Shown here: positions 34,793 through 51,377 of the stretch, in pieces
How the letters are laid out: every line of letters begins with the position of its first letter
Position numbering within the stretch: the first letter of the stretch is position 1
From: Candidatus Woesearchaeota archaeon
GTDB taxonomy: Archaea > Nanobdellota > Nanobdellia > Woesearchaeales > ARS49
DNA length: 64,000 nt
Direction of reading: 5' to 3'
Assembly (NCBI GenBank): GCA_016188265.1
Contig: JACPID010000005.1
Location: 38,126-102,125 of the forward strand
Notes under the pieces: model-generated
What the model saw: only the letters and a program-made list of their open reading frames with translations
Told to the model about the DNA's origin: nothing
Database searches by the model: none
Made by a program: the position numbers and the translations under genes

Positions 34793-35020
34793 ATGATTAT
34801 TCATATGATAAAAGAGGGATTTTTATTGAAGAGAAAGCTTCAGAAAACAAATAAAGACCAGTACATACTTACAATTCCTAAAGCATTAGTTGAAGTTCTA
34901 AACTGGAAAGATAAAGAAGTAATAGAATTTATTTTTGATGCAGATAAAATAGTCTTGCACAATAATCATTCAAACAATAAATTTTCTAGTTCTAAAAGAG
35001 GCGGTAAAAATCAAACTTAA
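34793..35020 (+). CDS. AbrB/SpoVT-like small DNA-binding protein
   Basis: YILTIPKALVEVLNWKDKEVIEF fits the swapped-hairpin beta motif. Confidence 0.4.
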   Translation: MIIHMIKEGFLLKRKLQKTNKDQYILTIPKALVEVLNWKDKEVIEFIFDADKIVLHNNHSNNKFSSSKRGGKNQT

Positions 35021-35027
35021 AACTACC

Positions 35028-38000
35028 TTGCTGCTTGTTTTATTGGCTGTTGTTATTTCATCAATTATTTTTGTTTATGCTGTTAATTTTGGAGATTCAA
35101 GCCCTGACACTGGCGAAGCAGACGGAGGAGCAAACAGAGGAACATTTGCTGTAGGAACAGGAACATTTACAGATACTAGATCTGATAATGATATTTATTT
35201 TGGCATTGAAAGAGCTATTGGAACTGCAGCAGCAGCTAATCAGACAGTAGAGTTTAACATTAGTATATTAAGCACTAATTCTTCTATTAGAATTACTGAA
35301 ATTAATCTAAGCGTTAAGTATTGTCATGCTAGAAGGGTTAGTAATATTTGTAATAGTGGAGCAGGATCTGCTCCTCAAGGAACTAATGGGTCTATGAGTA
35401 TTTTTATTTTTAACTCTACTGCTTTTGAAAAAATTGGAAGTCTTAATTCTACAACAACTGCTACTGAAATAGAAATAAGAGCTAATGCTTCTGGGAGAAA
35501 TAATTATGGCATTTACAATAATTCTCAAGGATATGTTAATATTAGCTTTGAGTTTGCATGGAGTGGTGCAGGAAGAAGCGCTTTTTTAAATGATCATACT
35601 AATTTAACGATTTCTTATGACAGGGCTCCTGTTGTTAATTTAGTTTCTCCTGTAAATAATAGTTTAGTAAATCCTGGTGAGATAAACTTTACTTGTAGTG
35701 CTACAGATGATTTTGGTTTAGCTAATATAACTTTATTTCATAATTTAAATGGTAGTTTTGTTGCTAATCAAACAAACACGAGTTTTGGAGGAACAAGCAA
35801 TTCAACAACTTTTACTTTAACAAATGTTTCTGAAAGAGTGAATGGTTTGTGGAATTGTTTTGCTTTTGATAATGCTAATTTATCAAGTTTTGCTGGTTCA
35901 AATTTTACAATAGATACTAGTTTCTTGAATATTAGTGTTGTTGGATGTAATCCTAGCAACACTGATATTAACCAAAGTACTATTTGTAATGCTACAATAA
36001 CAGATAATACTGGAGTTAGTGTTGTTCAAGCTAATGTAACAATGCCTAATGGCACTATTCTAGTTCAGACTCTTTCTAATACAACCAGTAACTATTTTTT
36101 TAATTTTACAGATACTAACTTAACTGGAAGGTATAATATTACTTGGATTGCTAATGATTCTTTAAATAATAACAAAACTGATGTAACGGGTTTTTTTACA
36201 GCTGGCAATGTAGTTCCTAATGTAACGCTCATTAATCCAGTTAATGGTTTTAATACAAGTGTGATTAATCAAACCTTTACTTTTAATGTTACAGATGATT
36301 TTGATAGTTCAGTGTCTTGTTCATTGATATTTAATGATATTACTAATCAAACTAATTCGTCTGTTGGTGTTAATGCTAATAGAACATTTGTTCTTAATAA
36401 TATTGTTGATGGCCAGAATAATTGGAGTGTTTCTTGTGCTGATAGTGGTGGAAAATCAGATCAGCCGGGAAATAGAAGAATTAATATTGATACAAAATCT
36501 CCGGAATTTATTAGTTTAACAACAGTTCCTGATGATGCTGATGGTCTTGATAACGGTGTTGATATTCTTGTTAGGGCTAATGTTACTGATAATACAACTG
36601 CTGTTAATAATAGTCTTGTTTTTTTAGATTTTAAAAGATCAACTCAAACTAAATTCACTCAAAAGCAAATGACTTTTAATTCTAGCACAGGATTTTTTGA
36701 AGCAATATTCAATCAAAATCAAGCAGCAACTTATAATTTAAGAATTAATGCAACAGATATAGTTAGAAATTCAGGCATAAGCAATACTATTGATATTACT
36801 TTAGATACTGAACGTACTTGGGTTGATAGGCCAACTCAGTTGGTATTGCCCGCACCTAATTTTAATCTTAATGGAAGCGATCTTTATACAGTAAATAATA
36901 CTGGTGATTTTAATCAACAATTTACTTTAGCCTCAAATTATTCACTTACATTCTTTAATGAAAGTGCAACTTTTATTTTAACAGCTAAAGAAATAAAAAC
37001 AATAAATGTTACAGCAACTGCCACTGATCAAACATTCACTAGATTTACACTTAACACAAGCACGAATAATGCAGAGCCTCTTTCTAGAACAACTAAAGCA
37101 ACAATTGTTGTTGCTCCTAATCAGCCAATACTTGTTGCAGAAATTACATCTGCACCAGATGTTGTAACACAAGGACAAATTGGCGTAAGCCTTATTGCTG
37201 AGCTAGAAAATGTTGGTGAAGGCAATGCAACAGATGTTGTTTTTAGTTTTGATTTACCTAGTGACTGGTTGATAAGAGCAGGTAATCAAAGCTCAAATAT
37301 AGGCAATATGACTTCAGGAGATCTTGCTACATTAGTTTTAGAAGTTAACATATCTAACAATGCTGTAGTTGCTAATCAGACAATTGTTGCTAATGCTACT
37401 GGAAATAATCAAACAGGAAGTAATATCGCTCCTTTAGGATTAATTTTTGAAGATACTAAAATAGTTGAAGTAAGAGGAAAACCTGGAATTCTCGGAGCAG
37501 GTGGTGCAGCAGCAGGAGCAGCTGCAGCAGCAGGAGCAGCAGCTGCAGCAGCAGGTGGCCAGCCTTTTCCTACGCCTCCTCTTGTTAGAAGTTTGTTTAC
37601 TGAAGAGTTTTTAGAAACAGAAGAAGTAGTTCACTTGACTAGAGGGGAAGAAACAAGTTTTCCTTTAAAAATTACTAATGTTTTTGGCAACACTACATTG
37701 TTTGATGTTAAATTAAGTATTCAAGGATTTTTAGCTCAATACTTAGATCATACTCCTGAAAAGCTTGATGATATTAAGTATGGTTTTAGCAAGTCATTTA
37801 TTATTAATGTTGCTAGTCCTGCTTATAGAAAAAGAGGGGTTCATAATTTAGTATTTAACATTAAAGGTTTTGCTACTGGCAGGTTTATTATTGATAGAAA
37901 TGGAACTCCTGAAGAAATTAATGCAGTTATTGATTTTACTGAAAAAAGAAATGTTACACTTTATATTCATGAAATCAATCCATTAATAGCAGAACAAGCA

Positions 38001-38984
38001 TATAATACATCAATAAAAAAATTTATTGAATTAAAAGAAGCTGGTTTTCCTGCTAAAAAAGCTTCAAAACTATTTGAAAAAATAAACAATTCTTATTTTA
38101 GTTTTGATTATTTGCAAGTTAAAATATTAAGTGAAGAGCTTCAAGAATTGCATAAAACTGCATTTAGTGCTAATAACATAATTAAAGAACTGCAAGAAAA
38201 GATTAAAAAATCTGAGCAAGCGGGCCTTGATGTTAGTTCTACACAAAAACTTGTTGATTTAGCTCTTATTGCTTTTGAAAGAGAAGATTTTATTTTAGCT
38301 AAAAAAAGAGCTGAAGAAGGACGGCTTATTGAGTTTTTAGAAGTTAAAGGGGCATTTAATATTGTTAGGTTTGTAGAACGATTTTGGTGGGCAATTATAC
38401 TGGTGATATTATTTGTTAGTGTAAGCAGTTATGTTGTTTATAGAAGAATGCTTGTTCAAATTATTAATCAGCGTATTGAAAATCTTATGATCGAAGAAGT
38501 TAACATTGTTAGTTTAATTAAAGAAGTTAAAGAGCAGTGTTTTATTAAAAAAGAAATGTCTCTTGAAAGATATCATAAGTTGATGTATAATTATGAAAAA
38601 AGAATAGAACAAATTAAAACTATTATTTCTCAATTAAGAACAAAAAGAATTGGAATGTTAAGCATTCAAGATGAGCTGGCTGCGTTGATGGAAGAAAAGA
38701 AGAGAATTGAGCAATTAATAAAAGATACTCAGGAAATGTATTATGTTAAGAAGACCGTTAATTATTCTGATTATCTTTCAAGAATTGATGAATATAATGT
38801 TCGTAAATCAGAGATTGAAAAAGAGCTTGCAATTCTGGAAGCAAAAAGCATAAGAGACATTCAACAAGAGTTAGAAATGCATAAGCACATAGAACATCCT
38901 GATTGGGAGAAAAAGATCGCAGTATGGAAATTAAAATTTAGAAAATATTTGGAGAATATTATTCGTTACGTGCATAGAATATGA
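35028..38984 (+). CDS. giant surface glycoprotein (1318 aa): N-terminal signal anchor, about 1100-aa sequon-rich ectodomain, Ala/Gly linker, TM, cytoplasmic coiled-coil tail
   Basis: Dozens of N-x-S/T sequons, an AGGAAAGAAAAAGAAAAAAGG linker, a TM (WWAIILVILFVSVSSYVVY), then a conserved tail. It starts with TTG; there is no in-frame ATG after the upstream stop at 34950. Confidence 0.6.
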   Translation: MLLVLLAVVISSIIFVYAVNFGDSSPDTGEADGGANRGTFAVGTGTFTDTRSDNDIYFGIERAIGTAAAANQTVEFNISILSTNSSIRITEINLSVKYCHARRVSNICNSGAGSAPQGTNGSMSIFIFNSTAFEKIGSLNSTTTATEIEIRANASGRNNYGIYNNSQGYVNISFEFAWSGAGRSAFLNDHTNLTISYDRAPVVNLVSPVNNSLVNPGEINFTCSATDDFGLANITLFHNLNGSFVANQTNTSFGGTSNSTTFTLTNVSERVNGLWNCFAFDNANLSSFAGSNFTIDTSFLNISVVGCNPSNTDINQSTICNATITDNTGVSVVQANVTMPNGTILVQTLSNTTSNYFFNFTDTNLTGRYNITWIANDSLNNNKTDVTGFFTAGNVVPNVTLINPVNGFNTSVINQTFTFNVTDDFDSSVSCSLIFNDITNQTNSSVGVNANRTFVLNNIVDGQNNWSVSCADSGGKSDQPGNRRINIDTKSPEFISLTTVPDDADGLDNGVDILVRANVTDNTTAVNNSLVFLDFKRSTQTKFTQKQMTFNSSTGFFEAIFNQNQAATYNLRINATDIVRNSGISNTIDITLDTERTWVDRPTQLVLPAPNFNLNGSDLYTVNNTGDFNQQFTLASNYSLTFFNESATFILTAKEIKTINVTATATDQTFTRFTLNTSTNNAEPLSRTTKATIVVAPNQPILVAEITSAPDVVTQGQIGVSLIAELENVGEGNATDVVFSFDLPSDWLIRAGNQSSNIGNMTSGDLATLVLEVNISNNAVVANQTIVANATGNNQTGSNIAPLGLIFEDTKIVEVRGKPGILGAGGAAAGAAAAAGAAAAAAGGQPFPTPPLVRSLFTEEFLETEEVVHLTRGEETSFPLKITNVFGNTTLFDVKLSIQGFLAQYLDHTPEKLDDIKYGFSKSFIINVASPAYRKRGVHNLVFNIKGFATGRFIIDRNGTPEEINAVIDFTEKRNVTLYIHEINPLIAEQAYNTSIKKFIELKEAGFPAKKASKLFEKINNSYFSFDYLQVKILSEELQELHKTAFSANNIIKELQEKIKKSEQAGLDVSSTQKLVDLALIAFEREDFILAKKRAEEGRLIEFLEVKGAFNIVRFVERFWWAIILVILFVSVSSYVVYRRMLVQIINQRIENLMIEEVNIVSLIKEVKEQCFIKKEMSLERYHKLMYNYEKRIEQIKTIISQLRTKRIGMLSIQDELAALMEEKKRIEQLIKDTQEMYYVKKTVNYSDYLSRIDEYNVRKSEIEKELAILEAKSIRDIQQELEMHKHIEHPDWEKKIAVWKLKFRKYLENIIRYVHRI
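37493..37557 (+). repeat. GCA/GCT-rich simple-sequence repeat encoding the poly-Ala/Gly linker
   Basis: The stretch gcagcagcaggagcagctgcagcagcagga... stands out against AT-rich flanks. Confidence 0.6.
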
Positions 38985-40252
38985 AAAAATCAATAATAAC
39001 AATATGTTGCACAGTATTTTTTTTAGTTATGTTTACTGTATTTGCTCAAGAAGATATTGCTGAAGCTGAGCTGACGCAAAAGTATACTGGAATTAATGAA
39101 ATAGGTGCTGAAGAATATTTAGAAAATTCTGAGAAAATAATTCAAGCCATGGGAAATGCTAATTTAAGTATAGATAAAATGAAGGTTTTGCTTCAGGAAG
39201 TTGATGAAGCGTTTAATCAAAAAAAGTATGCTGAAGTAAAAGCAGGGTATTTTAATATAAAACAGCATTATGAAAGCGCTTTTGCTGCTCGTGAACGTTT
39301 TAAAATAGTGGATGAGTTGATTAAAACTGCTGAACAAAAATGGAGAGATCCGAAACAAGCAAAAAACATGCGGGCATTAGCGCAGGCAGCTTTTGAAAGA
39401 GAAGATTATGTTGAAGCTGTGGATAGGGCTGTACAAGCGCAAACAATTGTTGTATCAGAAGCTAAAGCAGTAAGCTGGAGATATATTTTTTATTATTATT
39501 GGTGGGCTTTTTTACTTGCAACAACAATCTTAATTATTATTTTAATAATTCTTTACTATCGCAAAAAATTAATCTTGCTAAGCCAGAGAATTGAAGACTT
39601 ATCTAAAGAAGAGCTGAATATTATGAATTTGATTCAAGAAAATCAGCAGAGTTATTATGAAAAAAAAGAAATATCCCCTTCACAATATCATAAAGCAATG
39701 TATGAGTACGAAAAAAGGCTTAATCAGATTAGAAGAGAGCTGGCAGGGTTGAGAACAAAACGCATAAAATTAGTTGGAATTAAAAAAGAACTTGAAAATC
39801 TTGAGAGAGAAAAAAAGCATTTGTTAGGATTGATAAATAAAGTTCAAGAACAGTTTTATGTTAAGAAAACATTAAGTTATAACAAGTACAGATTTAAAAT
39901 AGAAGAGTTTTATAATCGTCTGGCAGAAGTTGAGGAGAGTTTTGCTTTATTAAGTGGGAAAAAAGAAAATGAGCTGGATAAAAACTTGCATAATTACTTA
40001 ATAAATAGGAGAAAGCCCGTTAAAAAAAGCAAGTTAGTTGAAATGCTTATTTTACCTGAGAAGGATATGGCAAAGTATAAGAAGTTTAACAAGTTAAGAA
40101 CAGTATACGAAACAGAAGGTAAAAAGCAATTATCAAAAAAAATTACAAAAATACAATCATTAAAAGAATTAAAGCCTTCTGAAAAAGTTAAAAGCGAGGG
40201 ATCTAAAGAAAACAGATTAAAAAAATTAAGCATTATTTACAAAAATGGCTGA
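38981..40252 (+). CDS. paralog of the C-terminal module of the giant protein (signal peptide, short ectodomain, TM, coiled-coil tail)
   Basis: AQAAFEREDYVEA...WWAFLL(TM)...RIEDLSKEELNIMNLI...SQYHKAMYEYEKRLNQI...LRTKRIKL...YVKKTLSY aligns with residues about 1090-1260 of the giant protein. Confidence 0.55.
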   Translation: MKKSIITICCTVFFLVMFTVFAQEDIAEAELTQKYTGINEIGAEEYLENSEKIIQAMGNANLSIDKMKVLLQEVDEAFNQKKYAEVKAGYFNIKQHYESAFAARERFKIVDELIKTAEQKWRDPKQAKNMRALAQAAFEREDYVEAVDRAVQAQTIVVSEAKAVSWRYIFYYYWWAFLLATTILIIILIILYYRKKLILLSQRIEDLSKEELNIMNLIQENQQSYYEKKEISPSQYHKAMYEYEKRLNQIRRELAGLRTKRIKLVGIKKELENLEREKKHLLGLINKVQEQFYVKKTLSYNKYRFKIEEFYNRLAEVEESFALLSGKKENELDKNLHNYLINRRKPVKKSKLVEMLILPEKDMAKYKKFNKLRTVYETEGKKQLSKKITKIQSLKELKPSEKVKSEGSKENRLKKLSIIYKNG

Positions 40253-41003
40253 AACTATTGGTTTTATTGCAATCAAAGGAGGTGTTGGAAAAACTACTTG
40301 CACTGCAAACATAGGAGCGAGTCTGGCGTATAAATTTAATAAAAAGGTTTTATTGGTTGATGCTAATTTTACAGCTCCAAATCTTGGTTTTTATTTTGAT
40401 ATTTTTGATACTAAAAAAACCATTCATGATGTTTTGCAAAATAAAGTAAAAATCGAAGATGCTATAGTTGAGTATAATGAAAAAATTCATATTATTCCAG
40501 GAGCGCTTTGCCAAGGCGCTATCAAAAAACCCCTTGTACTTGATGCTGTGCTGAAAAAAGTAAAAGATGCGTATGATATTATATTGATTGATTCTTCGCC
40601 AAATATAGAAAATGAGATTTTATTCACTATTAATGCCAGTGATGTTGTTTATACTGTAACTACTCCTGATTTTCCAACATTAAGCACAACATTGCGCTTG
40701 CTTAAATTAACTCATCAAAAAAAGAATTATGTTAATGGATTGATATTAAATAAAGTAAAGTACAAAAAATATGAGTTAGAAAAAAGAGAAATTGAAAAAA
40801 CTGCAGAAGCTCCTGTTATTGGGGTTATTCCTAATGATTGGAAAGTTGAAGAATCACTGAGCATTCCAAAACCATTGCCATTGTACGCTCCTAAAAGCAA
40901 TGCTGCTGTTGCTTTTAATTCAATTGCTGCAATGATTATTGATGAAGATTACAAAGATCCAAGATTTTTAGCCAGGTTGAAAAATTTATTTATGAGAAGA
41001 TGA
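40245..41003 (+). CDS. ParA/MinD-family ATPase
   Basis: Deviant Walker A AIKGGVGKTT, LLVDAN (Walker A'), and ILIDSSP (Walker B). Confidence 0.75.
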   Translation: MAETIGFIAIKGGVGKTTCTANIGASLAYKFNKKVLLVDANFTAPNLGFYFDIFDTKKTIHDVLQNKVKIEDAIVEYNEKIHIIPGALCQGAIKKPLVLDAVLKKVKDAYDIILIDSSPNIENEILFTINASDVVYTVTTPDFPTLSTTLRLLKLTHQKKNYVNGLILNKVKYKKYELEKREIEKTAEAPVIGVIPNDWKVEESLSIPKPLPLYAPKSNAAVAFNSIAAMIIDEDYKDPRFLARLKNLFMRR

Positions 41004-42511
41004 ATGGAAAAAATATAGAGCAACAAACAAAAGAAGCATTGTTAAAAAAGAGAAGTAAGTTTAAGTTTATTAGGAAAGTATTTGATAAGAAATTAAAGCT
41101 TGACAAAGCAACAGCAAAAACTAAAATAGTGCCTAAAGAAAATACCTCTAAAATAATTATTCAAAAAAGTTCTACACAAAAAACAGAACAACAAACAAAA
41201 GAAGCATTGTTAAAAAAACGTAGTCAAAATAAATTACGTCTTATACTAAAAAATGCGTACTTAACAAGCAAAAGCATATTCAACACTTTTAAAAAAACCA
41301 TCCAACAACACTTAAGAAACAGAGCATTAAAAAATAAGGAAGCAAAGCTAAATCAACTAAAAAAATGGACAGAAAAATATTATGAAGAAGAAATTCCAAT
41401 AAAAAAAGAACATCATACTTATATTGCAATAACATTAATAGTTATTCTTGCAGCATTAAGCTTTGTTGCAATTCAATCAAATTCTGCATTAATAGGCGAG
41501 TATATCTCTTCTATAACTGCGGCAGTTATTAATGTTCAACCAGCGCAAATTGCAAAAACAACCAGAGATCCTTTATTATTGGGAATGGTTGAAAATGAAA
41601 CATCAGAAATCATAATTACAGAAGCAATGGCTGAAGAAGCTCTGCTGAAAGCTAATAAAACAATTCTTGAACTGAAGGTGTTGAATTTTAGCACGCAGTA
41701 CATGCTGGATGCTTATTTAGAAGCTAAAAAAGCCTTTGATGGAAAAAATGTAGCTGAACTTTCTGAAAAAATCAAGTCAATAAAAAATGAGACTGAAAAG
41801 CAAGCATTTCTTAATGCATTAAACACAACTTTCACTAGTGAAGAAATTAAAAGGCTTGCTGCTGGCGATGAAAAAATTAGAGAAAACTATACAAGAACAT
41901 TGATTTATACTTCTTTAATAGAACAAAGAAAAGAATTAACTTTTGAAATAAATGATGAAATAACCTTGTTAGAAGAAGTTCTTTCAGGGCTTAATAGAAC
42001 AGAATATAATTTTACAGAAGTGGATTTAATGCACGCTGAAATAAAAGAAAAATTTGAAAAAGAACAGCTGGACGAGATTAAGCCTATAATTGAAGAAGCT
42101 TACAGAAAAATTGAAGAAGTACAATTAGAATCTGCACGTTTAAGGGCTTTTTTTAAAGCTGCAAGGCAAAATATTGGAAGCTTTATCAAAAGACACTGGC
42201 TTGCAATTATAATAACTTCAGTTATTCTAAGTTTTATTGCATGGATAACTTATAATGAAGTAATGATAACTATTTTAAGAAAAAGAATTAGTGATATGAG
42301 AATAGAGCAAAATGTTTTGAAAGATTTAACAAAAAAAATTCAAAAAAATTATTTTGGTGAAGGCAGTATTCCTAAAAGTGTTTATGAAATTAGAAAGCTT
42401 AAGTATGAAGAAAGAAATTTGCAAATAAAAGAACAGCTTCCTGTTGTTGAAGCTAATTTAGAAAAAAAAGAAAATAAAAGATTTTATCTTTTGCATTTTT
42501 GGAGGAAATAA
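41000..42511 (+). CDS. coiled-coil membrane protein sharing the TM + tail module
   Basis: An internal TM and a C-terminal WLAIIITSVIL(TM)...RISDMRIEQNVLKDL...YFGEGSIPKSVYEIRKLKYEERNLQI homologous to the tails of 35028 and 38981. Confidence 0.5.
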   Translation: MNGKNIEQQTKEALLKKRSKFKFIRKVFDKKLKLDKATAKTKIVPKENTSKIIIQKSSTQKTEQQTKEALLKKRSQNKLRLILKNAYLTSKSIFNTFKKTIQQHLRNRALKNKEAKLNQLKKWTEKYYEEEIPIKKEHHTYIAITLIVILAALSFVAIQSNSALIGEYISSITAAVINVQPAQIAKTTRDPLLLGMVENETSEIIITEAMAEEALLKANKTILELKVLNFSTQYMLDAYLEAKKAFDGKNVAELSEKIKSIKNETEKQAFLNALNTTFTSEEIKRLAAGDEKIRENYTRTLIYTSLIEQRKELTFEINDEITLLEEVLSGLNRTEYNFTEVDLMHAEIKEKFEKEQLDEIKPIIEEAYRKIEEVQLESARLRAFFKAARQNIGSFIKRHWLAIIITSVILSFIAWITYNEVMITILRKRISDMRIEQNVLKDLTKKIQKNYFGEGSIPKSVYEIRKLKYEERNLQIKEQLPVVEANLEKKENKRFYLLHFWRK

Positions 42512-43075
42512 ATGATTGCAATAGAAACTGTTCAGGCTTTTAGAATAAAAGATATTATAGCTCTTTTCTCATTAGCTTTGCTTTTAACTTTTATTACACT
42601 AATTTTACAGTATTTTGAGATTTATTTTTTGTTTTATTTTATAATGTTTTTATTATCTTTTTTCTTAACAATTACAGTATTTCTAGTTAGAAAAGCTGGA
42701 AGCGCAACATTATTTTTTATTATTACTTCTTTAATCTCATATTATTTTCCACTGTTAGGTATTCTATCAGAACTGAATAAGTTTCTTGTTCTTACAAGCA
42801 TAGGTATAATATTTGAATTGTTTTTTTTGGTATTAAAACTTGAAATTAAAAACATACCTATTGATGTTGTTTTTGGAGCTGGTTTTTCTATTGCAAGTTT
42901 TCCCTGGCTTATTTTGTTTTTAACAAAAATAGAATACACTTACCAACTTTTAATAAAAACTTTAAATGTTAGTTTAAGCGCATTTTTTATAGCATTAATT
43001 GCCAGTTGTTTAGCATTTCTTTTATGGTATGAAATTAAGAAAACAAAGATTATTTTAAGATATGAATTTTTATAA
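42512..43075 (+). CDS. polytopic membrane protein (about 5-6 TM)
   Basis: Hydrophobic throughout. Confidence 0.45.
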   Translation: MIAIETVQAFRIKDIIALFSLALLLTFITLILQYFEIYFLFYFIMFLLSFFLTITVFLVRKAGSATLFFIITSLISYYFPLLGILSELNKFLVLTSIGIIFELFFLVLKLEIKNIPIDVVFGAGFSIASFPWLILFLTKIEYTYQLLIKTLNVSLSAFFIALIASCLAFLLWYEIKKTKIILRYEFL

Positions 43076-44164
43076 CTAACCGCCTCCGACTTGGCCAAAT
43101 ACTTCTTGTTCTGGATATACAACAATTCCTTGATCTGTAATTTTCATCGCTACAACCTTTTTCTCAAACTTAGCTCCTCTGATTTTTAATATTTCAATTG
43201 CACTTTCCCTTACTGTTCCTCTTTGAACATTATATAAAATAATAACTCCGTCTGCTAAGAATTCCTCAACACCAGCAGTTGTTAATCTATTTAATCCATA
43301 AGTTCTTTCAGATACTAAAAAACTTGTGACATTGCTTTCTTCCAATAAATTAAATAATTGCTCAATATAAATCCTATAATTTTCTTCTTTGCCATAAAAT
43401 GCACTTGAAATAGCTGTCAAAGAATCAATAATTACTCTATCAGGAGTAAATCCTTTTGGAAATATTAAAGGCTTGATATCAATTAATAGCTCGCCTTTGG
43501 CTCTTTCAAGCATTGCAGTTACTTGCCTTGTTATGTCAAAAGGATTAACTTTCTGAAGAACCAGCAATCCTTTTTTTTCAAGTTCTTCAACATTAAACCC
43601 AAAATCTTTCATATGTTTTTTTAATCGTTCAGGGCTTTCTTCAAAAGTCATGTATAAGCATTTTTCACCTTTGTTTGCTGCATAATTACAAATTTGCAAT
43701 CCCATTATTGTTTTTCCAGTTCCAGGCCCTCCGCATAAAAGTGATGATGTCCCTCTAGGAAATCCTTTATCTAGAAGATCATCAAAACCAGTTACACCTG
43801 TTAATGCCCATTCTTTTGTATCACTTTTTTTTTCTTTTATTGCTTCAGCAACAGTAAACTCAATTCTTTTAGCTGGCGCTTCTAAAAATGGCGCTGGTTT
43901 TATTTTTCTAGCATGATAAAAACTTCTTAAATCTTTAAAAAGCTCATTTTCAGAGTTGGCTTTATAAAAGTCATGGCGCCTTTCTTTTCTACTAGTTAAT
44001 ATGCCTAAATTTGCAAATTTTTTAAGTTCTTTGCTTGCTGTAGCAGGGGCTATTTTAATTAATCTAGCAACTTCCCTAACATTAAACTCTCTGCTAGCTT
44101 CTTCTATAAAAACCCGAAGAATGTTTAATTCTTTAAACACATGTTTGTTTATAGTTTCAAACAT
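43076..44164 (-). CDS. wHTH-fused KaiC/RecA-superfamily ATPase (intact P-loop)
   Basis: N-terminal HTH region (REVARLIKIAPATASKELKKF), then GFDDLLDKGFPRGTSSLLCGGPGTGKT Walker A, and VIIDSLT Walker B-like. Confidence 0.7.
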   Translation of the reverse strand: MFETINKHVFKELNILRVFIEEASREFNVREVARLIKIAPATASKELKKFANLGILTSRKERRHDFYKANSENELFKDLRSFYHARKIKPAPFLEAPAKRIEFTVAEAIKEKKSDTKEWALTGVTGFDDLLDKGFPRGTSSLLCGGPGTGKTIMGLQICNYAANKGEKCLYMTFEESPERLKKHMKDFGFNVEELEKKGLLVLQKVNPFDITRQVTAMLERAKGELLIDIKPLIFPKGFTPDRVIIDSLTAISSAFYGKEENYRIYIEQLFNLLEESNVTSFLVSERTYGLNRLTTAGVEEFLADGVIILYNVQRGTVRESAIEILKIRGAKFEKKVVAMKITDQGIVVYPEQEVFGQVGGG

Positions 44165-44223
44165 ATGTTTAATAATATGAACATAAGTTTAAAAAGATTT
44201 CTATAGCGTAGAATTGAATAATA

Positions 44224-44784
44224 TCACACTGTAATTAATTTGTCACAAAATTGAGAAATAGTTGCTATTAATAATTTAGAAGCATCATCTTCAACAAATA
44301 TAAATAATCCAGCAACACTGCTTGTTCTAATTTGGTTGTTTATTATATAATGTAAGAATTTTGCAGTTAATTCAAGATCATTATAAATAAACAAAGTAGA
44401 TACAGAATCAAAAAGCAAAAAACTAAAATCACCACAATTTAAAGCAGAGGATATTGCAAGAGATAGTTCAGTTAATGACTGAGGCCCTTTTACAAAAGAG
44501 CAATTAACATGTGACAAATCTGTTAAACCAGAATGTTTGCTTATACAATCAATAAAAAACAATTTAGAAATATCTATTTTATTTTGTTTCAAAATGTTTT
44601 TTAAAAAAAAACAAGGAGTATTTAGAGTTACATAAATGCCTTTTAATTTAAGTTTTTCAACTAAAAACTTGATTATTGAAATAGTTGTTTGTTTGTAATT
44701 TTCAGCAGAGGTTGCAATACCATAAACTTTGTTTTTAGAAAATTCATTTAATTCTTTAGTTAAATTCTTGCTATTGTTGTTCAT
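44224..44784 (-). CDS. KaiC-like RecA-fold protein lacking the Walker A P-loop (paralog 1)
   Basis: Retains the KaiC-like blocks FIDCISK, LLFDSVSTLFIYND, FLHYIIN and LFIFVED but has no GxxxxGK[ST]. Confidence 0.5.
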   Translation of the reverse strand: MNNNSKNLTKELNEFSKNKVYGIATSAENYKQTTISIIKFLVEKLKLKGIYVTLNTPCFFLKNILKQNKIDISKLFFIDCISKHSGLTDLSHVNCSFVKGPQSLTELSLAISSALNCGDFSFLLFDSVSTLFIYNDLELTAKFLHYIINNQIRTSSVAGLFIFVEDDASKLLIATISQFCDKLITV

Positions 44785-45345
44785 TTATAATTTGATGCAT
44801 TTATCAGAAAACTGTGAAGTTACTGACATTAGCGCTTCTGAATTTTTTTCATCAACATATAAAAAAAAACCAGCAATATTTAAAGTTCTGATTTGGCTGT
44901 TAATCAAGTAATGTAAGAATTTACCGGTTGTATTTACATCATTATATATTAAAAATGTTGATACAGAATCAAAAAGCAAAAAATCAAATTTTTTTGTATT
45001 AAGCGCAGAAGATATTGCAAGAGATAAATCTGTCAAGCTCTGCGGATTTGAAAAAGAAACTGAAAGATTTGAATTAGGGTTTTCAAATTGCTTGCTAACA
45101 CAATCAATAAAATGCAGATTAGATAGATTAATTTTTCTTTCTTTAAGCTGTTCATGTAATGTTGAACAGGGGGTATTAAGTGAAACATACACTCCTTTAA
45201 AGCCTAAATTATTTATAAAATGTTCAAGTAAAACAAAGATTACCGTATGATAATAATTAGCATCTGTAAGTATCTCATATACTTTTTTTGAATCAATGTC
45301 TTTTAACTCTTTTAATATTTGTTTTTTAATCATTGATACTTCCAT
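44785..45345 (-). CDS. KaiC-like RecA-fold protein lacking the P-loop (paralog 2; probable ATG at 45345, the track start is GTG at 45396)
   Basis: FIDCVSK, LLFDSVSTFLIYND, FLHYLIN; in tandem with paralog 1 and directly abutting it. Confidence 0.5.
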   Translation of the reverse strand: MEVSMIKKQILKELKDIDSKKVYEILTDANYYHTVIFVLLEHFINNLGFKGVYVSLNTPCSTLHEQLKERKINLSNLHFIDCVSKQFENPNSNLSVSFSNPQSLTDLSLAISSALNTKKFDFLLFDSVSTFLIYNDVNTTGKFLHYLINSQIRTLNIAGFFLYVDEKNSEALMSVTSQFSDKCIKL

Positions 45346-45370
45346 AAAAACCCCCCTTGCTTGTTGTTTT

Positions 45371-45423
45371 AGTACGCGCCATAATTTGTAGTACACTCTT
45401 AATGGCGCGTACTATTTAGAAAA
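45371..45423. promoter_or_regulatory. perfect 12-bp inverted repeat (agtacgcgccat ... atggcgcgtact, 29-nt spacer) upstream of the KaiC-like operon, in the divergent region
   Basis: Read directly; the GC-rich palindrome is conspicuous in AT-rich DNA. It sits between the minus-strand KaiC-like operon and the plus-strand RHH genes. Confidence 0.45.
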
Positions 45424-45691
45424 CGAAACTATTGTCTCATTATTTATTTCGTTTTCTATTTGTTCAAAAAAAAATAATTATTTTCAACAATTACGAAAAA
45501 AACAGGTAAATTAATAAACTTTTCTCATTTCAAATAACATGTTATTTTAAAAATCTCTTAAATATGTCTTAGAAATATCTTATATAAATCATAAAAGAAT
45601 CATATACGTTATAAGTATATCGCTTATTGAACATGAATGCAATACTCAGATATCACAAAGTTTATATATTAGATAAAAAAATATAAAGTCA

Positions 45692-45865
45692 ATGAAAAGA
45701 ATTTTAGTAAGCATTCCCGAAGGAACTTGGGGGTTAATAGAAAAATATTTTAAAGGCAAAATTGGTGAAAAAGAATCAGAAATAATAAGAAACATAGTTA
45801 TCGCATATTTAAGTGAAAAAGGCTATCTTAAAAACAATGTCAAAAACAAACTCCATCAAAATTAA
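45692..45865 (+). CDS. small RHH/CopG-like protein (57 aa), tandem copy 1
   Basis: MKRILVSIPEGTWGLIEKYFKGKIGEKESEIIRNIVIAYLSEKGYL; not in the ORF track because it is under 60 aa. Confidence 0.45.
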   Translation: MKRILVSIPEGTWGLIEKYFKGKIGEKESEIIRNIVIAYLSEKGYLKNNVKNKLHQN

Positions 45866-45965
45866 TAAATGATCAATTCTTTTTCTGAAGATATCTCATA
45901 ATATGTATTTAAGTCATATAAAAGTATCATAAGATTTATATATAAGCAATACTGTAAAATAAGTG

Positions 45966-46133
45966 ATGAAGCGAATATTAGTGAGCATTCCTGACGGTAC
46001 TTGGAGAATTATCAAAAAGCATCTGATGGGTAAAATTGGTGAAAAAGAATCAGAAATAATAAGAAACATAGTGCTAGCATACTTAAGTGAAAAAGATTTC
46101 CTTAAAAAAAATAATAATAATAACAATCATTAA
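45966..46133 (+). CDS. small RHH/CopG-like protein (55 aa), tandem copy 2
   Basis: MKRILVSIPDGTWRIIKKHLMGKIGEKESEIIRNIVLAYLSEKDFL; about 80% identical to copy 1, with a similar upstream region. Confidence 0.45.
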   Translation: MKRILVSIPDGTWRIIKKHLMGKIGEKESEIIRNIVLAYLSEKDFLKKNNNNNNH

Positions 46134-46141
46134 AAGATAAC

Positions 46142-46540
46142 ATGCACACTGCACAACTTATTCAGTACTTGTTTGAAATAAGCACAATTATATTACTTTT
46201 ACTTCCAATTGCTATATTGCTAAATCTTTTAAAAAAATCAAAAGGTGATATTCCAAGATCTTTCACATGGTTGACTCTTGGTTTTACTCCATTTTTAGCT
46301 TTTAATTTAATAGACAGCTTAGCGGTGTTTGGCATAGAATTATTGCCTGATGAAGGAACATTAAGCAATGTTTTACTATATCACAGTGTAATACTAATAA
46401 CTATTATAACTGTAGCAGCTTTCTTTTTATGGTTCGACAGAAAATATGTTCAGCCAATTTATTCATTCACAAAAACACAGGATAAAAAAGTAAAAAAAAA
46501 AATTTTCTCCCCCCCCCCAAAAAAAAAACTTTTTTTTTGA
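46142..46540 (+). CDS. small membrane protein (3 TM) whose 3' end runs through homopolymer tracts
   Basis: Three hydrophobic helices; the C-terminus KKVKKKIFSPPPKKKLFF is encoded by A11-C10-A10-T9. Confidence 0.4.
   Translation: MHTAQLIQYLFEISTIILLLLPIAILLNLLKKSKGDIPRSFTWLTLGFTPFLAFNLIDSLAVFGIELLPDEGTLSNVLLYHSVILITIITVAAFFLWFDRKYVQPIYSFTKTQDKKVKKKIFSPPPKKKLFF
46492..46538 (+). repeat. consecutive homopolymer tracts A(11) ttttct C(10) A(10) c T(9)
   Basis: Read directly from 46491-46540. Confidence 0.9.
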
Positions 46541-46679
46541 ATTTTCTGAACAAACAAAGTAAAATGCTAAAGTTATCCGGTTGCGTAGATGCTGAAATAG
46601 CCAACTCTGATGCAATCCTTTCTTATAAGCTAAATTGAAAAAAATTTATAAACTTCATTATATATTAAGGAGTGTATAA

Positions 46680-47237
46680 ATGAAAGAAGTTCAAAAAATA
46701 AAAAAAGAGTTGAGCAATCTGCCTGTTGGAAGTATTGTTCTTTTGGAAACAAGCGCAGAAAATATTTTAACAGTAAGCATTCACTCAATTAAATCATTAA
46801 TAGAACAAGGTTACAATGTTATTATTTTGTCTGTAAGCAGGCCTTGTTTTAATCTTATGAATATCTACGAGAAAAGCAGGATAAACACAGAAAATGTTTT
46901 TATTCTAGACTGTATTTGTAAAAGTCAAGGAATTAAAAGTGAAGAAAAGAAAAATGTAATTCATTTGAAAAGTGTTTCTGCACTAACTGAAATATCTCTT
47001 GCAATTAATGAATGCATTACTAGAATTCCTGGCAAAAAACTAGTTTTTATTGATTCTATAACAACAATGCTGATTTATAATGACCAAAATATATTTTCAA
47101 GATTCTTGCATTACTTATTGACAAAGTTAAGAATTCAAAAAATAAGCGGTTTAATGCTTTCCTTAGAAACAGAAGCTGATAAAGAAGTAATGGCTCAAAT
47201 TGCGCAGCTTTGTGATAGAATAATAAAAATAAAATAA
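46680..47237 (+). CDS. KaiC-like RecA-fold protein lacking the P-loop (paralog 3)
   Basis: FILDCICK, LVFIDSITTMLIYND, FLHYLLT, LMLSLETE; the same architecture as paralogs 1 and 2. Confidence 0.5.
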   Translation: MKEVQKIKKELSNLPVGSIVLLETSAENILTVSIHSIKSLIEQGYNVIILSVSRPCFNLMNIYEKSRINTENVFILDCICKSQGIKSEEKKNVIHLKSVSALTEISLAINECITRIPGKKLVFIDSITTMLIYNDQNIFSRFLHYLLTKLRIQKISGLMLSLETEADKEVMAQIAQLCDRIIKIK

Positions 47238-47248
47238 AATTTTTTAAA

Positions 47249-47352
47249 AGATCTCCTGCATGTCAAAAACTGCTAATCCTATCTACAGACTGAAGTTTAT
47301 AGCGTACATCATAGCAGTTTTTGACATGTAAACTTAACTATTTCTGGAGATA
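47249..47352 (+). other. large structured element: 17-bp perfect stem (catgtcaaaaactgcta / tagcagtttttgacatg) with a 36-nt loop, flanked by an imperfect outer stem; a terminator or small RNA
   Basis: Inverted repeats read directly; located between the paralog 3 stop and the tRNA promoter. Confidence 0.4.
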
Positions 47353-47502: not shown

Positions 47503-47676
47503 GGGCCTGTAGCTTAGCTTGGTGGAGCAACGGTCTTATATGACGTTGTTTCGCACAACGATCGAAGCTAGCCGTAGGTCGGGGGTTCAAAATGGTTTGT
47601 GGTTAGTGGTTCGTGGTTTGAGGACTGCAAACTACCCACTACAAACTATAAACCATAGAAAGTCCCCTCAGGCCCA
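47503..47676 (+). tRNA. tRNA with two introns (29 nt at 37/38 and about 71 nt in the T-loop); mature 74 nt, anticodon UAU (putative tRNA-Ile)
   Basis: Exons: GGGCCTG-TA-GCTT-AGCTTGGTG-GAGC-A-ACGGT-CTTATA | intron 47541-47569 | A-GCCGT-AGGTC-GGGGG-TTCAAA(A) | intron about 47593-47663 | CCCCT-CAGGCCC-A. All stems pair and the acceptor is a perfect 7 bp. TATA-like tttttaaaa lies about 30 nt upstream. Confidence 0.6.
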
Positions 47677-47777
47677 CTTTTTTTATTCTATAGAAAATAA
47701 CACTAATTTTCATAATTTTTGTTATTTCCTATATTCGACAAACTTTACTATTAATATATGATTATTAAAGTTTGTCG

Positions 47778-50963: not shown

Positions 50964-51377
50964 TCATTTTAACAATTTTTCTATTTTCTTTATTATTTTT
51001 TCAGCAAATTCAATTGCTAATTTAGCTTCAGATTCATCACAATTCTCACCATAATATTTTATAGAATTTCTTATTTTTCTCAATCTATCAAACTCAGCAA
51101 TATCACTCTCACTAAATCCTCTACCCATAAGATAAACTATTGAAGCTTCATGAGAAAATGATTTAAATCCATTTAAATACAATAAAGAATCTGCTGCTTC
51201 TCTCATTGCTTCATAAGCATTTTCAAGAACATATTTTGGTTTTTCTTTTCTAAAAATATTCTTAGCTAAGTTAATTCTTTCTACACTATCGATAAATGCT
51301 GCTTTGGATAAATTTATATCTGGACTTTGTTTTTTAACTTCACCTTTTTTTAAAAAAAATTCAAATTCTTTCACCAA
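50964..51377 (-). CDS. HEPN-domain protein
   Basis: ...NAYEAMREAADSLLYLNGFKSFSHEASI... and a RNSIKY (R-x4-Y) motif; the gene overlaps the upstream MNT by 7 nt. Confidence 0.55.
   Translation of the reverse strand: MVKEFEFFLKKGEVKKQSPDINLSKAAFIDSVERINLAKNIFRKEKPKYVLENAYEAMREAADSLLYLNGFKSFSHEASIVYLMGRGFSESDIAEFDRLRKIRNSIKYYGENCDESEAKLAIEFAEKIIKKIEKLLK

What the first reader, a model, noticed from the sequence alone, without database searches (positions are those of the whole stretch)
43076..47352. Cluster of one wHTH-KaiC ATPase, three P-loop-less KaiC-like paralogs, two tandem RHH proteins and a palindromic operator
A minus-strand operon encodes paralog 2, paralog 1 and a winged-HTH-fused KaiC/RecA-family ATPase with an intact P-loop. 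Diverging from a perfect 12-bp palindrome at 45371-45423, the plus strand encodes two near-identical RHH proteins, a 3-TM protein and a third P-loop-less KaiC-like protein. The three roughly 185-aa paralogs keep the KaiC-like core blocks (FIDC, LFDSVST, FLHYL) but have no Walker A, so they are probably non-catalytic partners of the single active ATPase. KaiC-like ATPases are proposed signal-transduction hubs in archaea (ArlH in the archaellum; KaiC-based switches). I do not recognise this exact combination (HTH fusion, inactivated paralogs, RHH regulators, membrane protein) as a named system. It sits directly beside the ParA/surface-protein module, so it might control surface-structure deployment or host attachment in a DPANN-like symbiont, or act as a conflict system.
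Basis: partly seen in the sequence, partly recalled or inferred. Interest (0 to 1): 0.8.

Follow-up and report, generated by a model that had tools for sequence, protein, structure and literature searches.

The report
KaiC ATPase with inactive paralogs
A tiny groundwater archaeon (Woesearchaeota) carries one working KaiC-type ATPase fused to a DNA-binding domain plus three copies that have lost their ATP-binding loop, and in at least eight other lineages this set sits beside genes for a giant cell-surface protein, so it is most likely a known type of archaeal signalling module in a context I found no description of.

Summary
All seven genes are at the stated coordinates. The three ~186-aa paralogs have a confident RecA/KaiC fold (AF2 pLDDT 93; best PDB match is the archaeal KaiC-like PH0284) and no Walker A. 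The 362-aa protein is an intact KaiC ATPase with an N-terminal winged helix.

P-loop-less KaiC domains ("iKaiC") are a published concept, and this family is Pfam DUF7504, with about 900 clusters at E<=1e-30. Pairing with an active KaiC is conserved: 45 of 65 GTDB loci have a KaiC within 3 kb.

In relatives of this KaiC clade, across at least 8 lineages, the order KaiC, iKaiC(s), small DNA-binding protein, giant surface protein, p503, TM187 recurs. The neighbouring "surface-protein module" (35028-43075) therefore belongs to the same system. One relative fuses iKaiC to a histidine kinase, and two fuse it to a membrane anchor.

Three elements are not conserved parts: the two RHH genes (a promiscuous ~50-aa CopG family found in unrelated contexts), the 13-bp inverted repeat, and MinD. 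There is no defence signal.

Verdict: a KaiC/iKaiC signalling module linked to a giant surface protein. It is a new variant of a known kind and of moderate interest.

The parts
34793..35020 (+). 75-aa AbrB/SpoVT (MazE-type) small DNA-binding protein immediately upstream of the giant surface-protein gene
   Evidence: Pfam PF04014 E=3.4e-6, 27.3 bits against a gathering score of 24.7. Relatives carry a non-homologous small RHH-like or wHTH protein at the same position.
35028..38984 (+). Giant (1318-aa) membrane-anchored surface protein 'p1318'. It has an N-terminal TM segment, Ig-like repeats rich in N-x-S/T sequons, a C-terminal TM segment and a cytoplasmic helical tail.
   Evidence: Big_7 hit; sequence; hydrophobic segments. 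Homologues lie next to KaiC in L091, L102, L104, L105, L106, L110, L112 and L116.
38981..40252 (+). 'p423': paralog of the C-terminal part of p1318 (signal peptide, helical ectodomain, TM segment, cytoplasmic tail)
   Evidence: phmmer against p1318 E=3.3e-45; hydrophobic segments.
40245..41003 (+). MinD/ParA-family ATPase
   Evidence: NCBIfam archaeal MinD TIGR01969 E=2.6e-50, below its cutoff. Pfam AAA_31, CbiA and ParA above their cutoffs. No homologue found in the related loci.
41000..42511 (+). 'p503': two-TM protein with a helical ectodomain and a cytoplasmic tail
   Evidence: Homologues adjacent to KaiC in L101, L106, L112 and L116.
42512..43075 (+). 'TM187': polytopic membrane protein whose stop codon abuts the KaiC stop codon (convergent genes)
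   Evidence: Homologue at the same operon position in L116, E=2.1e-32. Fused to the p503 homologue in L112, E=9e-8. No Pfam or NCBIfam hit.
43076..44164 (-). wHTH-KaiC: single-domain KaiC-family ATPase with intact Walker A, EE pair and Walker B, and an N-terminal winged helix-turn-helix
   Evidence: PF06745 E=1.6e-54; motif positions. wHTH: NCBIfam ArsR-type E=5e-6 and PADLOC PDC-M05A E=3.4e-12.
44224..44784 (-). iKaiC paralog 1 (DUF7504): KaiC fold, no P-loop
   Evidence: AF2 pLDDT 93.2. Foldseek best match PH0284 (2dr3), TM 0.74, E=1e-7, then FlaH, KaiC and RecA. PF24336 above its cutoff.
44785..45345 (-). iKaiC paralog 2; its stop codon abuts the start codon of paralog 1
   Evidence: 49% identical to paralog 1; PF24336 at 29.9 bits; called as 186 aa in three other assemblies.
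45370..45414 (.). Perfect 13-nt inverted repeat (TAGTACGCGCCAT, 19-nt spacer), 25 nt upstream of the paralog-2 start codon; candidate operator or 5'-UTR hairpin
   Evidence: It occurs nowhere else in the window.
45417..45458 (.). Second perfect 12-nt inverted repeat (TAGAAAACGAAA, 18-nt spacer)
45692..45865 (+). RHH1: 57-aa CopG-family ribbon-helix-helix protein
   Evidence: AF2 pLDDT 85.9. The best fold matches are the NikR RHH domain, Arc, ParD2 and PrpA, none statistically significant. PF01402 hits 2 of 21 family members. Sources name the family CopG.
45966..46133 (+). RHH2: tandem paralog of RHH1
   Evidence: 73% identical to RHH1; the DNA duplication is 77% identical.
46142..46540 (+). 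3-TM small membrane protein with a Lys-rich cytoplasmic C-terminus; it starts 9 nt after RHH2 and lies upstream of paralog 3
   Evidence: Hydrophobic segments. It is positionally analogous to the small TM proteins that accompany iKaiC in 57 of 76 loci, but homology is not demonstrated.
46680..47237 (+). iKaiC paralog 3 (DUF7504)
   Evidence: PF24336 E=9.7e-8 and DUF7090 E=3.7e-6. Among the loci fetched, its strongest matches include the TM-protein-linked iKaiC genes of L091 (4819-5403) and L094.
47261..47326 (.). Perfect 15-nt-arm inverted repeat, 24 nt after the stop codon of paralog 3 (possible 3' hairpin)

Best explanation
This is a KaiC-centred signalling and regulatory module of a Woesearchaeota (DPANN) genome, and it is genetically coupled to an operon for a giant surface protein.

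Shown:
- One catalytically competent single-domain KaiC ATPase carries an N-terminal wHTH.
- Three paralogs keep the KaiC fold but have lost the P-loop and the catalytic glutamates.
- This pairing, and its adjacency to the giant-protein, p503 and TM187 genes, is conserved in diverged relatives.
- In relatives the iKaiC domain is fused to a histidine kinase or to a membrane anchor, or is followed by a small membrane protein.

Inferred:
- The iKaiC proteins are non-catalytic adaptor or input subunits that bind the KaiC oligomer, or mix into it. They relay information from membrane partners: the 3-TM protein, and possibly the cytoplasmic tails of p1318, p423 and p503.
- The nucleotide or oligomeric state of KaiC then sets an output. 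In this genome the output includes DNA binding by the fused wHTH, plausibly at the 13-bp inverted repeat over its own promoter region. It may also include control of expression or assembly of the surface-protein complex.
- The two RHH proteins and the AbrB-like protein are local, interchangeable transcription factors of their own downstream cassettes.
For: - Fold and loss of catalytic motifs. None of 84 family members in GTDB loci has a Walker A. 73 of 74 adjacent KaiC partners do.
- Conserved pairing: a KaiC lies within 3 kb in 45 of 65 loci with enough flank, and 22 loci have two. iKaiC lies directly downstream of the window-type KaiC in L102/103, L105, L110 and L116, and several iKaiC paralogs accompany one KaiC in L091.
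- Link to surface proteins: p1318, p503 or TM187 homologues flank KaiC in L091, L101, L102, L104, L105, L106, L110, L112 and L116. The KaiC ATPase domains of these loci are only 51-79% identical to each other, apart from L102 and L105 at 97%.
- Signalling character: iKaiC-HisKA-HATPase_c fusion followed by a REC protein in L110. iKaiC fused to a 2-TM anchor in L102 and L105. Two-domain KaiC with Cache/HAMP proteins next to P0005.
- Independent wHTH-KaiC fusions (P0208, P0210, P0240), and a stand-alone wHTH in L102, L105 and L011.
- Literature: iKaiC domains occur in archaeal response regulators (PMC5847659). KaiC-family and MinD-like ATPases associate with archaeal surface-filament loci (PMC4858521). 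The KaiC-like CirA lowers transcription of neighbouring, oppositely oriented archaellum genes (PMC10983859).
Against: - There are no experimental data for any protein of this clade.
- Physical interaction between KaiC and iKaiC is inferred only from gene adjacency.
- The link to the surface proteins is synteny only. It is absent in some relatives (L011, L107, L113).
- The more common iKaiC neighbourhood (two short KaiC genes, iKaiC, a small TM protein, putative pilin-like proteins) is different, and none of its accessory families is detectable in this window.
- The window's 3-TM protein is not demonstrably homologous to the usual small TM partner (hhalign probability 1.5%).
- The palindrome, the RHH pair and MinD are not conserved in relatives.
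- The wHTH is missing from most close homologues.
Confidence: 0.55

Rival explanations
1. Assembly or export platform rather than signalling. KaiC and the iKaiC proteins would form a cytoplasmic ring that docks on the coiled-coil tails of p1318, p423 and p503 and drives or scaffolds insertion, glycosylation-coupled export or positioning of the giant surface protein. This would resemble ArlH in the archaellum motor, with MinD providing localisation.
For: - KaiC is co-directional with the giant gene in L091, L104 and L106, and overlaps it in L091.
- All three surface-module proteins have a TM segment followed by a long cytoplasmic helical tail.
- A MinD gene is embedded in the operon here.
- FlaH/ArlH is among the best structural matches of the paralog.
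Against: - Fusions of KaiC to wHTH and of iKaiC to a histidine kinase, and neighbouring REC, Cache and HAMP proteins, point to information transfer rather than mechanical work.
- MinD is not conserved in the related loci.
- No secretion ATPase or platform protein lies in the cluster.
- ArlH membership fails: 35.7 bits against a cutoff of 215.
Confidence: 0.22
2. Two unrelated units lie side by side by chance. The minus-strand KaiC, iK1 and iK2 operon belongs to the surface-protein system. RHH1, RHH2, the 3-TM gene and iK3 form a separately acquired cassette with its own regulators, and the inverted repeats only mark the junction.
For: - The RHH family is promiscuous and associated with mobile elements.
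- iK3 is only 33% identical to iK1. Among the loci fetched, its strongest matches include the TM-protein-linked iKaiC genes of L091 and L094.
- Contigs from three independent Logan assemblies all break at 45431, between the two units.
- Strong hairpins bracket the segment from 45460 to 47260, and a tRNA gene follows it.
Against: - Relatives such as L091 also hold several iKaiC paralogs of both subclades, with small TM proteins, around one KaiC.
- No integrase, transposase or direct repeats flank the segment.
- Even if separately acquired, iK3 is of the family that pairs with KaiC.
Confidence: 0.15
3. It is a defence or conflict system, or a toxin-antitoxin module, in which the RHH proteins are antitoxins and KaiC/iKaiC act as NTPase sensor and effector.
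For: - The wHTH matches the HTH of the candidate defence family PDC-M05A, E=3.4e-12.
- HEPN-MNT and other TA-like genes are nearby.
- The RHH family occurs next to R-M genes elsewhere.
Against: - PADLOC gives no hit for any iKaiC or membrane protein, and only weak hits to the KaiC ATPase region (mad8, E=3.1e-5). The PDC-M05A match covers only the HTH.
- No nuclease, toxin or other effector domain is present.
- Synteny with surface proteins is conserved across lineages whose KaiC domains are 51-79% identical. That is unlike the patchy distribution of defence islands.
Confidence: 0.04

Closest known systems
Archaeal KaiC-like signalling hubs with inactivated KaiC domains (iKaiC, including DUF835 and MEDS). 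Proposed by Makarova, Galperin and Koonin, mBio 2017. I could not read that paper here; the concept is cited in PMC5847659.
   Same: An active KaiC-family ATPase is encoded with KaiC-fold proteins that lack the catalytic motifs. Fusions to wHTH, histidine kinase, REC and membrane segments occur in relatives. A regulatory role is predicted rather than demonstrated.
   Different: Here the iKaiC is a stand-alone ~185-aa protein of family DUF7504, present in three paralogous copies. The partner KaiC belongs to a well-conserved DPANN clade. The module is syntenic with a giant surface-protein operon, a link I found in none of the papers I could search.
CirA of Haloferax volcanii, a KaiC-like regulator next to the archaellum genes (PMC10983859)
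   Same: A single KaiC-like ATPase is encoded beside genes for a cell-surface structure and transcribed in the opposite direction. Its loss changes transcription of those genes.
   Different: CirA has no fused wHTH and no reported P-loop-less partners. Its target is the archaellum, not a giant surface protein. Sequence relatedness is at family level only.
ArlH/FlaH of the archaellum motor (PDB 4yds)
   Same: It is a single-domain KaiC-like protein that works as a nucleotide-dependent partner of a surface-organelle machine. It is among the best structural matches of paralog 1.
   Different: ArlH keeps Walker A and binds ATP. No ArlI or ArlJ gene lies in this cluster. The NCBIfam ArlH score is far below its cutoff.
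Elp4/5/6 and Rad51-paralog complexes (RecA-fold subunits with degenerate ATP sites). This comparison rests on my own knowledge, not on a paper read here.
   Same: Several paralogous RecA-fold proteins without a canonical P-loop act as non-catalytic subunits beside an active enzyme. iK3 gives weak Elp5 and Elp4 Pfam hits, E=0.016 and E=1.
   Different: There is no evidence that the three paralogs here form a ring, and the biological context is unrelated.
Cyanobacterial KaiABC clock
   Same: The same ATPase family (NCBIfam KaiC E=4.6e-43, well below its cutoff).
   Different: This is a single-domain KaiC, not a double-domain one. No KaiA or KaiB lies in the cluster. There is no basis for an oscillator.

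Membership tests
KaiC/RecA-superfamily ATPase (PF06745): the 362-aa protein | Profile score above the gathering threshold over the full domain | tested here: met
   185.2 bits against 26.6, covering profile positions 3-230 of 231.
KaiC/RecA-superfamily ATPase (PF06745): the 362-aa protein | Walker A, catalytic Glu pair and Walker B | tested here: met
   GGPGTGKT at 145-152, FEES at 174-177, VIIDS at 244-248.
KaiC/RecA-superfamily ATPase (PF06745): the 362-aa protein | Hexamer formation, ATPase activity and autophosphorylation | not testable with these tools
   Needs biochemistry.
Inactivated KaiC (iKaiC): the three ~185-aa paralogs | RecA/KaiC fold | tested here: met
   AF2 pLDDT 93.2 and pTM 0.89. 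Foldseek: PH0284 TM 0.74, then FlaH, KaiC and RecA. Family profile against PDB sequences: KaiC E=4.8e-6.
Inactivated KaiC (iKaiC): the three ~185-aa paralogs | Loss of the Walker A motif and catalytic glutamates | tested here: met
   Alignment with the active KaiC. None of 84 family members has GxxxxGK[ST].
Inactivated KaiC (iKaiC): the three ~185-aa paralogs | Genomic association with active KaiC or signalling domains | tested here: met
   45 of 65 loci have a KaiC within 3 kb. Histidine-kinase fusion and REC neighbour in L110. Cache/HAMP neighbours.
Inactivated KaiC (iKaiC): the three ~185-aa paralogs | No nucleotide binding or hydrolysis | not testable with these tools
   Inferred from the missing motifs only.
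Pfam DUF7504 (PF24336) | Score at or above the gathering threshold of 27 bits | tested here: met
   30.3, 29.9 and 33.1 bits.
Ribbon-helix-helix / CopG family: the 57-aa and 55-aa proteins | RHH fold (N-terminal strand followed by two helices) | tested here: inconclusive
   The model has an extended N-terminus and two helices, pLDDT 85.9. The best matches are NikR, Arc, ParD2 and PrpA, but with E>=0.9. No Pfam hit for the window proteins. PF01402 hits 2 of 21 relatives, best E=2.5e-5.
Ribbon-helix-helix / CopG family: the 57-aa and 55-aa proteins | Sequence-specific DNA binding at the locus | not testable with these tools
   Needs EMSA or footprinting.
Cyanobacterial-type KaiABC oscillator | Double-domain KaiC together with KaiB (and KaiA) | tested here: not met
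   There is a single KaiC domain. No KaiB or KaiA hit among the cluster proteins.
ArlH / archaellum | ArlH equivalog score and neighbouring ArlI/ArlJ genes | tested here: not met
   35.7 bits against a cutoff of 215. No T2SSE or T2SSF gene in the neighbourhood.
GvpD (gas-vesicle regulator) | PF07088 score above its threshold | tested here: not met
   19.2 bits against 24.
Known anti-phage defence systems (PADLOC) | Match of the core proteins to a defence-system model | tested here: not met
   The strongest hit, PDC-M05A, covers only the HTH segment of KaiC. Hits to the ATPase region are weak (mad8 E=3.1e-5). The iKaiC and membrane proteins give none.

The most novel reading that the evidence does not exclude
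The three P-loop-less paralogs and the single active KaiC might assemble into a mixed ring that docks on the cytoplasmic coiled-coil tails of a giant, heavily glycosylated DPANN surface protein and on small membrane partners. Contact of the surface protein with a host cell would then be converted, through the KaiC nucleotide state, into wHTH-mediated transcription. That would be an outside-in host-contact sensing device specific to episymbiotic archaea.
Probability: 0.12. Interest if true: 0.8.

Novelty: new variant of a known kind. Interest (0 to 1): 0.5.

Why it matters
KaiC-family ATPases have been proposed as the main archaeal signalling hubs, yet almost none has a defined input, partner or output. 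This clade offers a compact and conserved test case. It has one active KaiC and dedicated inactive paralogs. Relatives carry fusions to a histidine kinase, a membrane anchor or a wHTH that name plausible inputs and outputs. It also has a candidate target, a giant surface protein of DPANN archaea, organisms whose lifestyle depends on cell-surface contact. If the link holds, it gives a concrete handle on how genome-reduced symbiotic archaea regulate their surface. It also gives Pfam DUF7504 a first functional context.

Tried and rejected
- The Makarova et al. 2017 mBio paper is not held in the library. The iKaiC concept is therefore cited through PMC5847659 and from my own knowledge.
- 'DUF7504' appears in no held paper.
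- Rfam finds nothing in the intergenic regions, either at gathering scores or at E<=1. The inverted repeats are not a known RNA family.
- The half-site TAGTACGCGCCAT has no other copy in the window with up to 2 mismatches. No regulon can be inferred from it.
- Profiles of the accessory families of the common iKaiC neighbourhood find nothing in the window, even at E<=1. These families are the small TM protein, the putative pilin-like proteins and the giant proteins.
- hhalign of the small-TM family against the window's 3-TM protein gives probability 1.5%. I do not claim homology.
- The 'pilin-like' label for those accessory proteins rests on N-terminal motifs read by eye. Pfam Class_IIIsignal gives only E=0.2.
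- I guessed that the cytoplasmic tails carry SHOCT-like motifs. A Pfam scan of the tails at E<=10 did not support it, so I dropped the idea.
- Neither TM187 nor p503 matches any Pfam or NCBIfam family at significance.
- The defence hypothesis found no support in PADLOC.
- The exact iK3 protein is not on record in the contig index. The sequence to the right of the Logan contig break could therefore not be compared across assemblies.
- The first attempt to seed the genome scan with the 26-sequence alignment failed for lack of a conserved stretch. A 9-sequence alignment worked.

Full report
**Source and gene content**

The window comes from a Candidatus Woesearchaeota MAG. The NCBI locus tags are HYV79_01730 and HYV79_01735, on a 109,812-bp contig. 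Identical genes occur in three Logan assemblies of groundwater runs.

The minus-strand operon runs iK2 (44785-45345), iK1 (44224-44784), wHTH-KaiC (43076-44164). The iK2 stop codon abuts the iK1 start codon. A GGGGGG motif precedes the iK2 ATG at 45345. The 203-aa GTG extension is therefore not the real gene, and other gene callers also give 186 aa. On the plus strand lie RHH1 (45692-45865), RHH2 (45966-46133), a 3-TM protein (46142-46540, starting 9 nt after RHH2) and iK3 (46680-47237).

**The proteins**

The 362-aa protein matches Pfam KaiC over the whole domain (E=1.6e-54). It has Walker A GGPGTGKT (145-152), the catalytic EE pair (175-176) and Walker B VIIDS. Its first ~85 residues are a winged helix: NCBIfam ArsR-type E=5e-6, PADLOC PDC-M05A E=3.4e-12 and several weak Pfam wHTH hits. 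This wHTH is homologous to the N-terminal HTH of the MNT protein at 51371-51889.

The three ~186-aa paralogs are 49% (iK1 vs iK2) and 33% (iK1 vs iK3) identical. Each passes the Pfam threshold for DUF7504 and gives sub-threshold KaiC and DUF835 hits. Aligned with the active domain, the P-loop is replaced by TSAENYKQT or similar, and the EE pair by NTP or SRP. A Walker-B-like D-S is kept.

An AF2 model of iK1, built from a 26-sequence family alignment, is confident (pLDDT 93.2, pTM 0.89). Its best PDB matches are the archaeal KaiC-like PH0284 (TM 0.74), then FlaH, KaiC and RecA. The family profile also finds KaiC and FlaH by sequence.

**The family and its usual neighbourhood**

The family is large: 907 clusters (at 50% identity) at E<=1e-30 and 2560 at E<=1e-10.

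I fetched 80 loci from GTDB species representatives: Woesearchaeota and Nanoarchaeia, plus MAGs labelled Methanosarcinales, Methanocellales, Archaeoglobus and Iainarchaeum. I annotated them with my own profiles:

| Measure | Result |
|---|---|
| iKaiC members with a Walker A | 0 of 84 |
| Loci (with enough upstream sequence) with a KaiC gene within 3 kb | 45 of 65 |
| Loci with two tandem KaiC genes of ~235 aa | 22 |
| Adjacent KaiC genes with a Walker A | 73 of 74 |
| Loci with a ~140-aa multi-TM protein right after iKaiC | 57 of 76 |

The partner KaiC is usually divergently oriented. The small TM protein ends in a K-[VIE]-[YF]-G-F motif followed by a Lys-rich tail. In many loci it is followed by small proteins whose N-termini look like class III signal peptides, and by 900-1400-aa surface proteins. 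The pilin-like reading is by eye only; Pfam gives E=0.2.

So pairing of an iKaiC with an active KaiC and a small membrane protein is a conserved theme. None of the accessory families of this common neighbourhood is detectable in the window.

**The window's own type of locus**

The closest relatives of iK1 and iK2 and of the window's KaiC reveal a second, better-matching neighbourhood.

The KaiC ATPase domain is 51-70% identical to many DPANN proteins whose N-terminal extensions vary. Most are Lys-rich. Some (P0208, P0210, P0240) carry a different wHTH.

- L091 has one such KaiC with four iKaiC paralogs and many small TM proteins. The KaiC gene overlaps the start of a homologue of the window's 1318-aa protein.
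- In metagenome loci of this KaiC clade, iKaiC follows KaiC directly in L102/103, L105 and L110.
- Homologues of p1318, p503 or TM187 flank KaiC in L101, L102, L104, L105, L106, L110 and L112.
- L116 (from P0240) shows the whole set in one direction: wHTH-KaiC, iKaiC, a 52-aa RHH-like protein, p1318 fragments, p503 and a TM187 homologue at E=2.1e-32.

The KaiC domains of these loci are 51-79% identical to each other, apart from one near-duplicate pair (L102 and L105, 97%). The synteny therefore spans at least 8 lineages. Both convergent order (window, L101, L112) and co-directional order occur.

The unit is therefore larger than the finding. It includes 34793-43075. The parts are:
- an AbrB/MazE-type 75-aa protein (PF04014);
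- the giant Ig-repeat protein, rich in N-x-S/T sequons, with a C-terminal TM segment and a cytoplasmic helical tail;
- its paralog p423 (E=3.3e-45);
- a MinD-family ATPase;
- p503 and TM187.

MinD has no homologue in the related loci.

**Signalling character**

- In L110 the iKaiC domain is fused to HisKA and HATPase_c and is followed by a REC protein.
- In L102 and L105 it is fused to a C-terminal 2-TM anchor, a fused version of the iKaiC plus small-TM gene pair.
- Next to P0005 lie a two-domain KaiC and Cache/HAMP proteins.
- A small DNA-binding protein sits just upstream of the giant gene in each well-covered locus, but its fold differs: RHH-like in L106, L110 and L116; wHTH in L102 and L105; AbrB-like in the window. 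A homologous stand-alone wHTH also lies in L011, which has no giant gene.

This is the pattern of interchangeable local regulators.

**RHH pair and inverted repeats**

RHH1 and RHH2 are 73% identical. They arose by a tandem duplication that is 77% identical at the DNA level.

They belong to a ~50-aa CopG-named family that is 53-83% identical across Woesearchaeota and Diapherotrites. Three homologues I looked up sit beside a transposase, an R-M methylase with MamI-type nucleases, or an integrase, each followed by unrelated small ORFs. No homologue occurs in any of the ~100 iKaiC/KaiC loci. The RHH fold is likely but only weakly supported. I read these proteins as regulators of their own downstream cassette (here the 3-TM gene and iK3), not as defining parts of the system.

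The 13-nt perfect inverted repeat (45370-45414) and the adjacent 12-nt one (45417-45458) are real and unusual. About 0.36 perfect 13-nt repeats are expected per window. The pair folds with z = -6.3 on the + strand and -6.1 on the - strand. They lie 25-113 nt upstream of the iK2 start codon.

They occur only once, and no close relative exists in which to test conservation. L116 instead has five 13-bp tandem repeats upstream of its wHTH-KaiC. Operator and 5'-UTR hairpin both remain possible.

**Comparison with known systems**

Inactivated KaiC domains (iKaiC, including DUF835 and MEDS) are described as parts of archaeal response regulators, and KaiC ATPases as signalling hubs (PMC5847659, citing Makarova et al. 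2017, which I could not read). KaiC-family and MinD-like ATPases are known to associate with archaeal type IV pilus and archaellum loci (PMC4858521). The KaiC-like CirA lowers transcription of the adjacent, oppositely oriented archaellum genes in Haloferax (PMC10983859).

The present cluster fits this kind. Membership in the KaiABC clock, ArlH, GvpD or any PADLOC defence system fails on tested features.

The new elements are:
- the stand-alone DUF7504 paralogs in triplicate;
- the conserved DPANN KaiC clade;
- its synteny with a giant surface protein, p503 and TM187, which no paper I could search describes.

**Mechanism**

My preferred reading (about 0.55) is a signalling module. The iKaiC proteins act as non-catalytic adaptors between membrane partners and the KaiC oligomer. 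The KaiC state sets a transcriptional output through the wHTH and possibly an assembly output for the surface-protein complex.

Rival readings:
- An assembly-platform role like that of ArlH is the main rival (about 0.22).
- The plus-strand cassette may have been acquired separately (about 0.15). Points in favour are the promiscuous RHH family, the contig break shared by three assemblies at 45431, the bracketing hairpins and the adjacent tRNA gene.
- A defence role is unlikely (about 0.04).

**Verdict**

This is a new variant of a known kind, with interest about 0.5.

Noticed in passing
window 47503-47677 (+): A tRNA-Ile(UAU) gene interrupted by two introns: 29 nt at the canonical 37/38 position (47541-47569) and 71 nt in the T-loop (47593-47663). 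ARAGORN and Rfam miss it. After manual removal of both introns, ARAGORN calls a 75-nt tRNA-Ile(tat). The region shows as a local GC peak of 52%.
   Followed up: partly
window 47261-47326 and 47736-47777: A perfect 15-nt-arm inverted repeat (36-nt loop) lies 24 nt after the iK3 stop codon. A perfect 12-nt one lies just before 47778. Four of the five independent perfect inverted repeats of 12 nt or more in the 64-kb window lie between 45370 and 47777.
   Followed up: no
window 45431 (= position 1 of L001, L002, L003): Contigs from three independent Logan assemblies (SRR12113420, SRR12113422, SRR12113424) all end at exactly this base, inside the loop of the second inverted repeat. The exact RHH1 and RHH2 proteins are recorded only on the NCBI contig. 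This may reflect population microdiversity or an assembly break in AT-rich sequence. It remains unexplained.
   Followed up: partly
window 50964-51889 (-): A HEPN (137 aa) and HTH-MNT (172 aa) pair. The N-terminal HTH of the MNT protein is homologous to the wHTH fused to the KaiC ATPase (phmmer E=1.5e-6), which suggests domain shuffling within this genome.
   Followed up: no
L004/L005, L011, L091/L093: A nitroreductase gene lies directly upstream of an iKaiC gene in three unrelated loci, often with overlapping stop and start codons.
   Followed up: no
L110 740-2386; L102 9725-10591; L105 9234-10232: iKaiC is fused to HisKA and HATPase_c and followed by a REC protein in L110. It is fused to a C-terminal two-TM anchor in L102 and L105.
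   Followed up: partly
L116 9870-9935: Five tandem copies of the 13-bp unit GTGATAGTTTAAT lie about 70 nt upstream of a wHTH-KaiC gene. This is a candidate operator array, different from the window's palindrome.
   Followed up: no
L091, L094, L011 and the cluster-1 proteins of L011-L090: The small (100-140 aa) multi-TM proteins encoded next to iKaiC genes share a C-terminal K-[VIE]-[YF]-G-F motif followed by a Lys-rich tail. This could be a docking peptide for iKaiC. The window's 3-TM protein ends in QPIYSF plus a Lys-rich tail, but homology is not significant.
   Followed up: partly
window 38981-40252, 41000-42511, 35028-38984: p423, p503 and the C-terminus of p1318 are paralogous. All three have a TM segment followed by a long charged cytoplasmic tail. 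Read by eye, the tails carry repeated Y-x-x-K-x-[IM]-S-x-x-x-Y-like motifs. No Pfam family matches the tails.
   Followed up: partly
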